Under the pieces are notes generated by a model, which saw only the letters and a program-made list of their open reading frames with translations, had not been told where the DNA came from and made no database searches. The translations under genes were made by a program, and so were the position numbers. A DNA stretch of 64,000 bases, from the NCBI GenBank assembly GCA_951406725.2, contig OX597817.1:77438001-77502000 (forward strand). The letters run 5' to 3'. Each line of letters begins with the position of its first letter. Position 1 is the first letter of the stretch. This document shows positions 50,221 to 61,520 of the stretch, one piece after another. Origin of the DNA: Octopus vulgaris. Its lineage: Eukaryota.

Positions 50221-50418
50221 ATGTGACCGCGTGTGTACCGTTGGCGATTTTTTCCCTCCGTCTTCCCTTCTCTGGATCTTTCCTTTTCCTATGTTTCTGA
50301 CGAAGAGCTCCGCTCGAAACGTAAAACCCTTCCTTCCTGAGCGTCCAATAATACTATTTTTGGTCCACGTCCTCGCGTTGTTGTGTTTTCCCTTTGTGTT
50401 TTCATGTTTGGATTAACT
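50221..50418 (+). mobile_element. ~200-bp hammerhead-bearing Penelope-like element
   Basis: Homologous to 42061-42271; the 3' end ggattaact abuts (TA)n. Confidence 0.8.
50293..50327 (+). ncRNA. Minimal type I hammerhead ribozyme, predicted cut after 50323
   Basis: GTTT-CTGACGA-a-GAGC-tcc-GCTC-GAAA-CG-TA|AAAC: stem I GUUU/AAAC, 4-bp stem II, loopless palindromic ACGU stem III, GUA triplet. Confidence 0.75.
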
Positions 50419-52339: not shown

Positions 52340-52555
52340 ATCCTTTCTACTAAAGGCACAAGACCTGAAATTTTGAGGGGAGGGGACTAGTTGGTTAAAT
52401 CGACTCCAGTGTTTCACTGGTACTTGATTTATCGACCCCAAAAGGACGAAAGGCAAAGTCGACCTCGGCGGGTTTTGAACTTAGAACGTAATGACGGACG
52501 AAATGCCGCTAAGCATTTTGCCCGGCGTGCTAACGATTCTGGCAGCTCGTCGCCA
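52340..52555 (-). mobile_element. SINE family C, short-tail variant
   Basis: Matches the family C consensus. Confidence 0.9.
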
Positions 52556-52745
52556 TGTTATCTAAATAATAATGAAATTACGGCAATTCACTGTCGTTAT
52601 TTTCCAGTTCTTATCACAATCTATTTTTACTTTTTAGGACACTCAACTGCATGTGAACCTGGAGAAGGGCAGGAACTATTGAGTTCACCTTTTCTTCTTT
52701 TATTTACCTAGACTGATATCAAACCGTTATATGGCACGCGCGCGC

Positions 52746-56179: not shown

Positions 56180-56512
56180 CAACTCAACTGGTACTTAATT
56201 AATCGACTCCCGAAAGGATGGAAGGCAAAGTCGACCTCGGCGGAATTTGAACTCAGAACGTAACGGCAGACGAAATACCTATTTCTTTAATACCCACAAG
56301 AGGCTAAACTCAGAGAGGACAAACAAGGACAGACAAACGGATTAAGTCGATTACATCGACCCCAGTGCGTAACTGGTACTTAATTTATCGACACCGAAAG
56401 GATGAAAGGCAAAGTCGACCACGGCGGAATTTGAACTCAGAACGTAACGGCAAACGAAATACGGCTACGCATTTCGCTCGGCATGCTTAACGATTCTGCC
56501 ACCTCACTGCCT
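56180..56512 (-). mobile_element. SINE family C dimer
   Basis: Two units joined at gaaatacctatttc (56272-56285). Confidence 0.9.
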
Positions 56513-56937: not shown

Positions 56938-56979
<42 letters not shown>

Positions 56980-56980
<1 letters not shown>

Positions 56981-57200
56981 TTTATGTAAAAGCAGCAGAA
57001 ATATAACAAAAGCGGTTACTCAGAGTTTCATGTTCCCGTTCGTCGGACAGTTTTGTTTGTCCGATGAACGGGAACGTGAAACTCTGAGTAACAGCTTTTG
57101 TTATATTTCTGCTGCTTATAAATAAAGCATATTACTCTACCTCTGGTATTTGAGTATTCTTTTTTTCCACCTTGCTTCATATTTATGTTCTTACTCCGGT
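56980..57200 (+). mobile_element. Penelope-like pLTR fragment with 70-bp fold-back and CCGA-variant hammerhead
   Basis: Arms 56980-57049 and 57058-57127; ttgt-CCGATGA-acg-ggaa-cgt-GAAA-ctctgag-TA|acag at 57057-57094; aataaa downstream; flanked by TA repeats. Confidence 0.75.
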
Positions 57201-57569
57201 ATATATATATATATATATGTAAGGGTCGACATATTAAAAGGTGTCCGTGGGAAAACTTATTTAAATAAAAGGGTGGGAACCACTGTTGGGAACCATTGTG
57301 AGAAGGTTGGGAACTACTGTTTTAAAACGACTATGTCTTACCTTTACTTAGTAAAAAAAAAAGAAAAGAAAAGAAAAAGGAAAATGAAAATGGTGTAGAG
57401 TCTTACCTATTATTGCAAAAAAGATTGGTAGTATCCGATTTGTAATAAGAGAAATCTGCCAAAAGAGAAAAAAAAAATTTAATGTAATAAAGGATTGAAT
57501 TAATATATAAAACAAATTTGTAAATTCACAAATAAGATTGAGAAAATATTAATTAATAAGGGTTTCAAA

Positions 57570-57780
57570 TTTTGGCACAAGGCCAGCAATTTCCGGGGAG
57601 GCTAGGTCGATTACATCGGCCGCATTGATCAACTGGTACTTATTTTATTGACCTCCGAAGGGATGGAAAGCAAAGTCGACCTCGACCTCGGCGGAATTTG
57701 AACTCAGAACGTAAAGAGGGACGAAATGCCGCTCAGCATTTTTACCCAGCGCGGTAACGATTTTGCCAGCTCGGCGCCTT
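57570..57780 (-). mobile_element. SINE family C, short-tail variant
   Basis: Matches the family C consensus. Confidence 0.9.
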
Positions 57781-58783
57781 AATAATAATCTGCTATAATA
57801 ATACTCTTGTGTTTTTTCTCCCTCTCAACATATTAATGAGAAAGGAAGGGGTGATAGATGAATAAGGAAGGAAGGGGTGATGCAAACTGGTAGTGGGAGC
57901 GTTTCAACTCTGTGTGAGTATATGTGTGTGTATGGAAAAGGGAGATGTGTAAATGTTTATTTGTGTGTGTGTATGTGTTTGTGTGTGTGTGTGTGTGCAA
58001 TGGAAGTGGGATGGTGAACTTTCATCGCTGGAAAGAAAAATAAAACAGCGTTTCAACTCTGTATGAATATGTGTGTGTGCGTGTGCAAGAGAAATATTTG
58101 AAGTATCTGTGAACCAGCATTGTTTCAGTAACAAACGATGATCGATGTCACATCTCAAAAGACAACCATTATATAACACTGACAAGTGTATTAATTTGAT
58201 TTCAGAGCAATTTCAGAGCAAGGTGGATGTCGATTACATCGACCCCCCCCCCCCCCCCATGCTCAACTGATGATTATTTTATCGACCTTGAAAACGATGA
58301 GAGGCAGAGTCGACCTCGGCGAAATTTGAACTTAACGTGAAGACAGATGAACTGCTGCTAAGCATTTCCCCCAGCGTGTTAACGATTCTGCCAGCTTACC
58401 GCCATGATGATGATGATGATGATGATGATGGTGATGGTGATGGTGGTGGTGGTGGTGGTGGTGGTGGTGATGGCACAAGGTCAGCAACATTTAAGGGAAA
58501 GGGTAAGACGATTTCATCGGCCTTAATATTTGACTGGTACTTTATCTTTTCGACCCCGAATGGATGAAAGGCAAAGTTGATCTCGGCCGCAGTTGAATTC
58601 AAAACGAAGAACGAAAAGAAATACTGCAGAATATTTTCCCCGACGGATTTCTAGATGGCATAACAGAACCAAAATTCTAATTACACAAAATGGTTGTAAC
58701 ATGATTTAAGAGAATAAGTAAAATATTTAAAATATGATAAAATAAATTAACGTTGAAATGAATTTTCTTACGTTGACAAGAAA

Positions 58784-59390
58784 TATTTATTTCTTTATTG
58801 CCCATAGGGGGTTAAACATAGAGGGGATAAACAAGGACAGATAAACGGATTAAGTCGATTTCATCGACCCCAGTGCGTAACTGATATTTTAGTCGATCTC
58901 GAAAGGATGAAAGGCAAAGTCAACCTTGGCGGAATATGAACTCAGAACGTAACGGCAGACGAAATACCTATTTCTATTTCTTTACTACCCACAAGGAGCT
59001 AAACACAGAGAGGACAAACAAGGACAGACAAACGGATTAAGTCGATTATATTGACCCCAGTGCTTACTGGTACTTATTTAATCGACCCCGAAAGGATGAA
59101 AGGCAAAGTCGACCTCGGCGGAATTTGAACTCAAAACGTAGCGGCAGATGAAATACCTATTTCTCTACTATCCACAAGGGGCTAAATACAGAGAGGATAA
59201 AAAAGGACAGACAAACGGATTAAGTCGATTATATCGACTCTAGTGTGTAACTGGTACTTAATTTATCGACCCCGAAAGGATGAAAGGTAAAGTCGACCTC
59301 GGCGGAATTTGAACTCAGAACGTAACGGCAGACGAAATACGGCTACGCATTTCGCCCGGCGTGCTAACGTTTCTGCCAGCTCGCCGCCTT
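58784..59390 (-). mobile_element. SINE family C trimer (one head, three ~180-bp body and tail units)
   Basis: Junctions gaaatacctatttct at 58961 and 59150; whole array flanked by gttgacaa (58772 and 59391). Confidence 0.92.
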
Positions 59391-60317
59391 GTTGACAAAA
59401 ACATTGCATTGTGAAAGTTTTAAGTACTCAATGAGTAAATGCCAAAGATATATACACTTAACAAGAAGGACGTGTATACATTCCCACACACATTCACATA
59501 CACACATAAGTATATATGTTTTATTTCAATATTTCTTGCCAATAGTGAAAGGGCCGGTTTCTAACCTAGGTCCAAGGCTCCTTCATTGAAATTTCAACAT
59601 CAACAACAGGCTATATTTGTTTGTTTGTATGCATGCATGCATGTATGTATGTATGTATGTATGTATGTATGTATGTATGTATGTATGTATGTATGTATGT
59701 ATGTATGTATGTATGTGTGCAGATTTATATGTTTTCTTTTATGTCTGTATTCTCGTGCATATAGTTGAATATCTAGACATGCTCATATATATCTAAATGA
59801 TAAACTTCTGGAAAGTTTTGTAGATTTCTACAGTTCCAGTGATGGATTCGACCTGTAGGCTTCGAATTAGCTTTCTCCTATATGGTTTTGAGAAGCCAAA
59901 TTTCTCAAGATTGGTATTTAGGCAGAGTGTTACACATCCCAGGGCCCCCAATAATTACAGGTATAAACCTGTAATCTGGATAGAGTAACTGCAAAGAGCT
60001 AAGCTTGAAACGTCAACATTTTCACTTCTAATTTTCCACTCGAACAATCACCGAGCGTCAAACTAATGTATTCACGATGTACGTCGATCTGATGTTTATT
60101 GCTTTCGTTTCTGTTTTTATTCTTGTAGTCACCTTCGTCAACGTTTTGCCTGACACAGGAAAAAAAATGAGTCGTAGTTGTCAGGAGGCGTTCGATGCCT
60201 CCTAGGGCTATACAACAGTGGTGTACCCCCTACTGTTACGTTCTTGTTAGATTGACAGTATACAACCATTCTATCGCCCCACCACCGTACATGTCTCTAC
60301 GAGAGATTTAGAAATTC

Positions 60318-61317: not shown

Positions 61318-61520
61318 GGCGAAATGCTTAGCGGTTATTCGTCTGCCGTTACGTTGTGAGTTCAAATTCCGCCAAGTTCGACTTTGCCTTTCATCCTTTC
61401 GGGGTCGATAAATTAAGTACCAGTTACGCACTGGGTTCGATGTAATCGACTTTAATACCTATGTCTGTCCTTGTTTGTCCCCTCTGTGTTTAGCCCCTTG
61501 TGGGTAATAAAGAAATAGGT
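61318..61520 (+). mobile_element. SINE family C monomer, long tail ending aagaaatagg
   Basis: Matches the family C consensus. Confidence 0.92.

What the first reader, a model, noticed from the sequence alone, without database searches (positions are those of the whole stretch)
56980..57127. 70-bp fold-back encoding a non-canonical CCGA-core hammerhead on both strands
Seen: arms differ at 5 of 70 positions around an 8-nt loop. The plus arm reads UUGU-CCGAUGA-ACG-GGAA-CGU-GAAA-CUCUGAG-UA|ACAG, with a near-palindromic stem III. The minus-strand arm also has CCGA (CCGACGA), so the U4-to-C change predates the inversion. A read-through transcript in either direction would contain a ribozyme and its antisense, forming a long hairpin that should block cleavage and could feed Dicer or ADAR. 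Activity of the variant core is untested.
Basis: partly seen in the sequence, partly recalled or inferred. Interest (0 to 1): 0.75.

Follow-up and report, generated by a model that had tools for sequence, protein, structure and literature searches.

The report
Penelope retroelement stub with CCGA hammerheads
This mirror-image repeat is a routine, likely dead, back-to-back stub of a Penelope-type jumping gene; the one unusual point is that its whole subfamily, and a second repeat family in the same genome, spread in very large numbers with a changed letter in the core of a predicted self-cutting RNA whose activity is untested.

Summary
The fold-back is real: 65 of 70 positions pair, and both arms carry a CCGA-core hammerhead motif. 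It is not a special locus. It is the 3' end (pseudo-LTR) of a Hydra-clade Penelope-like retroelement, inserted as two head-to-head, 5'-truncated copies in (TA)n. One arm has a 72-nt tail and the other lacks it, as in all 18 other close pairs I fetched. This arrangement is described for Penelope-like elements.

CCGA is the majority state of this subfamily (82 of the first 100 of 1,814 exact matches). Its CUGA copies look like CpG decay (8 CUGA against 6 CCAA). A very young sister subfamily with intact 727-aa frames has canonical CUGA (100 of the first 100). An unrelated hammerhead repeat family is also mostly CCGA (72 of the first 100 of 12,671).

Both arms here are damaged, and the hairpin would bury both cores if transcribed. 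No transcription was shown. U4C is known from one viroid variant, with reduced but non-zero activity. What may be new is U4C becoming the majority state in high-copy retroelement families; cleavage is untested.

The parts
56938..56979 (.). (TA)n microsatellite, left flank (target site)
   Evidence: sequence; (TA)n is the described Hydra-clade target (PMC8557442 section 11)
56980..57057 (-). Inverted, 5'-truncated pseudo-LTR copy without tail; ends at the family's proximal 3' end (AATAAAG); includes the helix I 5' strand at 57050-57057
57002..57057 (-). Minus-strand hammerhead motif: core CCGACGA at 57046-57040, predicted cut after 57017; stem II broken at 11.2 (57031) and helix I broken at 1.3 (57014)
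57050..57057 (.).
57058..57199 (+). Direct, 5'-truncated pseudo-LTR copy with tail, ending at the distal 3' end
57058..57094 (+). Plus-strand type I hammerhead motif: core CCGAUGA 57061-57067 (C at position 4 = 57062), stem II 3 bp with GGAA loop, GAAA 57078-57081, near-palindromic helix III 57081-57089, predicted cut after GUA (57090); helix I reduced to 3 bp plus one junction-made G-U
57128..57199 (+). 72-nt one-sided tail; in tandem intact young copies it runs on towards the start of the reading frame
57200..57218 (.). (TA)n microsatellite, right flank
   Evidence: sequence

Best explanation
The fold-back is two head-to-head, 5'-truncated copies of the hammerhead-bearing 3' end of a Hydra-clade Penelope-like retroelement, lying in (TA)n, likely made in one insertion event and likely dead since. 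Inferred mechanism (about 0.6): the element's GIY-YIG nuclease cut both strands of the (TA)n site, and each end primed reverse transcription at one of two start sites on the element RNA, giving one arm with the tail and one without. Both cDNAs ended just 5' of the hammerhead core and were joined near a short palindrome at the base of helix I. The C at core position 4 was inherited from the source lineage. It likely lowers cleavage without abolishing it, and was likely tolerated because reverse transcription uses uncut RNA.
For: Shown: family of dispersed copies, 945 first-look candidates. CCGA-core copies lie 0.1-1.8 kb downstream of a reading-frame remnant with a CxCX5C linker and GIY-YIG-type region. 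A sister subfamily 74-88% identical in that region has intact 727-aa frames. Its protein has RWK, DKT, YRDD, CxCX5C, CxxC and CxH and lacks the CCHH cysteines, the Hydra diagnostics in PMC8557442 section 11. Its model (pLDDT 89.5) has telomerase TERT as best PDB match, E 2.8e-9. 21 of the 30 closest copies have an inverted arm, 16 of them ending at the proximal end. 18 of 18 further close pairs have exactly one tailed arm, one of them rearranged. Core counts by eye from the first 100 listed rows: CCGA 82, CTGA 8, CCAA 6, CGGA 3, CAGA 1; CCGA 41, CTGA 12, CCAA 10 where the anchor lay outside the core. The five arm differences are three departures from the family majority on the minus arm and two on the plus arm, two of them CpG transitions. 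Literature: inverted 5'-truncated copy plus one-sided tail (PMC8557442); both strands cut and extended, two RT start sites defining the tail, hammerhead mutants not affecting insertion in vitro (PMC11167929); U4C lowers activity in vitro but allows viroid infectivity (PMC3088659 discussion). 0 of 100 listed copies of either subfamily begin at the cut site, which fits uncut RNA as template.
Against: This copy has no reading frame; the link is through other copies. Pfam found no family in the 727-aa protein and PDB sequence searches found nothing, so RT and nuclease identity rest on motifs, fold and Atlas neighbours. The GIY-YIG fold was not matched separately. Twin priming is not separated from snap-back synthesis by my data. 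The unit is about 3.36 kb and the tail 72 nt, longer than the <3 kb and 30-40 bp described. The 30 loci were chosen by likeness to this copy; L021 was read on the wrong strand there and is scored 'none'. Counts come from the first 100 rows (contigs C1-C2), not whole-genome tallies of each variant.
Confidence: 0.82

Rival explanations
1. Same element, but the inversion arose by snap-back: one cDNA ended at the short palindrome, folded back and primed its own second strand, which was resolved at a fixed point by the nuclease.
For: 5 of 11 young pairs have an 18-nt spacer centred on CTAG, 3 of them perfect palindromes. PMC8557442 ascribes the tail to nuclease-mediated resolution.
Against: 13 of 18 pairs, and this locus, have other spacers, many with lost or added bases. 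The short arm ends where many lone direct copies also end, which fits a second RT start site as measured in PMC11167929.
Confidence: 0.3
2. The CCGA core is a working ribozyme kept by selection, cleaving as a dimer through the palindromic helix III, likely with help from the element's protein.
For: All 11 frame-linked non-young copies with a readable core have CCGA across several supported subfamilies. The hammerhead region is 88-89% identical between CCGA subfamilies while the 330 nt upstream is 61-78%. Subfamily differences fall mostly in loops, the helix III centre and the helix I bulge. A second family is also mostly CCGA. The anole element's hammerhead cuts only with protein (PMC11167929).
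Against: The 24 nt downstream is about as conserved (83-89%), so the constraint may be on the RNA end, not on catalysis. The youngest subfamily has CUGA. No cut-site footprint. In the second family CCGA goes with GUU, never GUA (80 of 80).
Confidence: 0.35
3. The CCGA core is a catalytically dead relic that rode along because cleavage is dispensable.
For: Hammerhead mutants do not affect insertion in vitro (PMC11167929). Naiads thrive without canonical hammerheads (PMC8557442). The CCGA copies I fetched with frames are all broken (longest frames under 400 aa).
Against: The rest of the core and the stems stayed intact over a long lineage. U4C kept activity in a viroid.
Confidence: 0.25
4. This locus is a functional hairpin RNA (ribozyme plus antisense) feeding Dicer or ADAR.
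For: Predicted hairpin of -108.8 kcal/mol with core bases paired at probability about 1.
Against: Many equivalent stubs exist (7 close pairs in the first 100 rows, 11). The arms have decayed independently. No promoter, host exon or transcript was shown; 60 of the 134 window frames scanned gave no Pfam hit above its cut-off.
Confidence: 0.06

Closest known systems
Hydra clade of C-terminal EN+ Penelope-like elements (Craig et al. 2021, PMC8557442; read: passages and section 11)
   Same: RWK, DKT, CxCX5C linker, no CCHH, CxxC and CxH, single frame, (TA)n target, hammerhead in the pseudo-LTR, inverted 5'-truncated copy with one-sided tail.
   Different: Unit about 3.36 kb; tail 72 nt; the older subfamilies have a CCGA core, whereas the paper reports canonical hammerheads; thousands of copies.
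Minimal and variant hammerheads of metazoan Penelope-like elements (Cervera and De la Pena 2014, PMC4209133; read: parts 1-2 of 4, one of two supplements searched)
   Same: Type I topology, short palindromic helix III suited to dimers, place in the pseudo-LTR, pairs on opposite strands near each other.
   Different: The core variant described there is U3-A8; no CCGA core turned up in the searched supplement. Here stem II is only 3 bp, closed by A-U rather than G10.1-C11.1, and helix I has an 8-bp extension.
U4C hammerhead of a viroid (Ambros and Flores 1998, known only through PMC3088659; original not held)
   Same: Same core substitution.
   Different: A single variant there; here the majority state of two families with about 1,800 and about 12,700 exact-pattern matches.
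Anolis Poseidon element PAc in vitro (Frangieh et al. 2024, PMC11167929; read: parts 1-2 of 4)
   Same: Two 3' ends separated by a tail, AT-rich targets, no ends at the hammerhead cut site.
   Different: Different clade; canonical core; fold-back formation was not tested there.

Membership tests
Penelope-like elements (EN+) | Telomerase-like reverse transcriptase | tested here: met
   In the intact sister copy: YRDD motif; model's best PDB match is TERT 3du5, E 2.8e-9. Pfam negative.
Penelope-like elements (EN+) | C-terminal GIY-YIG nuclease in the same frame | tested here: inconclusive
   VVY...YTG motifs read by eye; Atlas neighbours carry PF01541 at 26-50% of members; Pfam E 0.014 at best in 2 of 40 homologues; no separate fold search.
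Penelope-like elements (EN+) | Partial tandems, inverted 5'-truncated copy, one-sided tail | tested here: met
   L077 anatomy
Hydra clade | RWK and DKT motifs | tested here: met
Hydra clade | CxCX5C linker; CCHH absent; CxxC and CxH near the end | tested here: met
   the linker is also in CCGA-linked copy L044
Hydra clade | (TA)n insertion | tested here: met
Hydra clade | RT phylogeny with reference Hydra elements | not tested
   no named reference set was held
Neptune clade (considered first) | CX2-5CxxC linker and CCHH motif | tested here: not met
Type I hammerhead | Three helices around the core | tested here: met
   family copy 4+8/3/3 bp; plus arm here 4/3/3; minus arm 3+7/2/3
Type I hammerhead | Core CUGANGA, GAAA, UH | tested here: not met
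   C at position 4; all other core positions match. A CYGANGA descriptor is in use (PMC13481778 passages).
Type I hammerhead | Self-cleavage | not testable with these tools
   the cut-site footprint was 0 of 100 in both the CCGA and the CUGA subfamily, so it is uninformative

The most novel reading that the evidence does not exclude
U4C has become the majority core in two unrelated hammerhead-bearing repeat families of this genome, and these CCGA hammerheads are working, protein-assisted or dimer-only slow ribozymes kept by selection. Natural CCGA/CUGA sister subfamilies would then let one ask directly what cleavage rate a Penelope-like element needs, and core descriptors fixed on CUGA would miss over ten thousand hammerheads here.
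Probability: 0.3. Interest if true: 0.6.

Novelty: new variant of a known kind. Interest (0 to 1): 0.36.

Why it matters
The locus itself is ordinary. The family-level facts are of modest use. What the hammerhead does for Penelope-like elements is an open question, and this genome holds sister subfamilies of one lineage that differ at 5 of 55 hammerhead positions, one with intact, near-identical frames. That is a ready comparison for cleavage against mobility. The strict one-tail, one-no-tail rule in 19 of 19 close pairs also constrains how these elements insert.

Tried and rejected
Rfam: no hammerhead family listed; microRNA hits reflect hairpins and microsatellites. Neptune assignment: rejected on motifs. 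CUGA as the ancestral state of this subfamily with CCGA as a local change: rejected, since CTGA is about as frequent as CCAA (8 against 6; 12 against 10). Assembly artefact: rejected, since the arms differ and opposite-strand joints at the same place appear in contigs of four runs with four organism labels. Cut-site footprint: none in 100 plus 100 rows; one copy (L089) seemed to start at the cut but is equally explained by helix I self-complementarity. Direction of the U4/C4 change: unresolved. The DNA tree of 26 rows shows end branches shortening from the window's group towards the young CUGA clade, which suggests a return to U. A protein tree of 21 copies with 7 distant outgroups makes the CCGA-side copies one clade (91.5/95), which suggests a single U-to-C change. 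Site counts were too few, and position 57062 was too near the edge to be listed. Expression: no RNA holder listed; contigs laid cannot place reads on this locus. Host gene: none found among the 60 longest of 134 frames. No frame was found for the second family among 30 loci. Papers not held: Lunse et al. 2017 and Ambros and Flores 1998. Six literature searches showed no listing of a CCGA-majority retroelement family, but Lunse et al. or supplements I could not see may report one.

Full report
Observation. The inverted repeat is as described: 5 mismatches in 70 around an 8-nt spacer, with CCGAUGA on the plus arm and CCGACGA on the minus arm. Rfam listed no hammerhead.

It is a repeat family. 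A search of the own genome (2.8 Gb) with 57050-57200 gave 945 candidates; the 40 scored were 91-100% identical. Of the 30 fetched, this locus included, 21 have an inverted arm upstream, 19 of them abutting, and 16 end at one fixed point, AATAAAG followed by (TA)n (L021 scored). I then fetched all 18 close head-to-head pairs seen among the first 100 rows. Each has one arm with the tail and one without; in one the tailed arm is rearranged. Spacers are 10-47 nt and cluster at a short palindrome at the base of helix I. This locus, with 8 nt, is the shortest.

It is a Penelope-like element of the Hydra clade. Walking upstream from longer copies reached a frame remnant. That remnant found a very young sister subfamily with intact 727-aa frames, often in head-to-head pairs. 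L077 shows the full pattern: (TA)n, inverted tailed copy, truncated direct copy, full unit, untailed end, (TA)n. Its protein has every Hydra motif listed in PMC8557442 section 11 and lacks the Neptune ones. The predicted fold matches telomerase best. Relatives are many and mostly unnamed (1,760 of 7,994 candidates). Pfam and PDB sequence searches were blank. The inverted truncated copy and one-sided tail are described features of these elements, as are hammerheads in their pseudo-LTRs.

The core. For the window's subfamily a pattern open at positions 4-5 gave 1,814 exact matches; the first 100 were CCGA 82, CTGA 8, CCAA 6, CGGA 3, CAGA 1, counted by eye. CTGA and CCAA are the two CpG decay products and are about equal, so CCGA was the source state. 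An anchor outside the core gave CCGA 41, CTGA 12, CCAA 10, the rest truncated or other. The young subfamily gave 3,852 matches, the first 100 all CTGA. All 11 older frame-linked copies with a readable core have CCGA. A second family, unrelated in sequence and present twice in this window in its CUGA form, gave 12,671 matches: CCGA 72, CTGA 22, CCAA 4, CAGA 2 in the first 100. There CTGA exceeds decay, and a CUGA-GUA subfamily is visible beside a CCGA-GUU one. Its link to a Penelope-like frame was not shown. Whether the lineage went from U to C once, or from C back to U in the young subfamily, is unresolved.

This copy. Family copies form helix I of 4 plus 8 pairs, stem II of 3 and helix III of 3, at about -7 kcal/mol. 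The plus arm here lost the helix I extension at the junction and scores +1.0. The minus arm keeps the extension but has breaks in stem II and helix I. In a read-through RNA the hairpin would pair nearly all core bases.

How it likely works. Shown: family identity, arm asymmetry, junction clustering, core frequencies. Inferred: a double cut in (TA)n and priming of both ends at two start sites, following the in vitro work on the anole element, which found both strands extended, two start sites defining the tail, and insertion unaffected by hammerhead mutations. Snap-back synthesis is the main rival. No copy among 100 plus 100 listed starts at the cut site in either subfamily, which fits uncut RNA as template and leaves activity open. 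U4C is reported to lower activity in vitro yet allow viroid infection (second-hand). The hammerhead region is better conserved between CCGA subfamilies than the sequence upstream, but no better than the 24 nt downstream, so constraint on catalysis is possible, not shown.

Novelty. The fold-back, the element type and the substitution are each known. I found no listing of U4C as a majority state in retroelement families, but the most relevant paper, Lunse et al. 2017, was not held. Papers seen: PMC4209133 parts 1-2 of 4 and one supplement; PMC11167929 parts 1-2 of 4; PMC8557442 passages and section 11; PMC3088659 passages and section 8; passages of PMC6765202, PMC13481778, PMC3907566 and bioRxiv 10.64898/2026.07.22.740005. 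Hammerhead numbering, CpG decay and the guess that the animal is an octopus are recalled. Verdict: new variant of a known kind, interest 0.36.

Noticed in passing
window 50297-50330 (+) and 42194-42160 (-): A second hammerhead-bearing, (TA)n-flanked repeat with a textbook minimal hammerhead; 12,671 exact-pattern matches, mostly CCGA; in 100 listed rows CCGA always went with a GUU cut triplet (80 of 80) and GUA only with CUGA (6 of 6).
   Followed up: partly
L070-L079, e.g. L077 2282-4465: Very young Hydra-clade subfamily with many near-identical intact 727-aa frames and 3,852 exact hammerhead matches; probably recently active. Its stem II is only 2 bp over an A-A mismatch.
   Followed up: partly
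L083 5861-5930; L132; L136: Intermediate copies with young-type flanks and the older stem II (CCGA core in L083), linking the two subfamilies.
   Followed up: partly
L120-L137 junctions: Fold-back junctions cluster 5-25 nt before the core at a 4-nt palindrome, perhaps the RNA's 5' end or an RT stop.
   Followed up: partly
L118 1176 (+) and the opposite strand of the same locus: A third hammerhead-like motif (CUGA core, palindromic helix III) present twice in opposite orientation.
   Followed up: no
window 52389-52566, 56183-56477, 57610-57770, 58262-59400, 61318-61452: Many copies of a short interspersed repeat, some in tandem at about 184-nt spacing.
   Followed up: no
L065 4817-7933 (-): Intact 1,039-aa endonuclease plus reverse transcriptase frame of a LINE-type element next to an old copy.
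   Followed up: no
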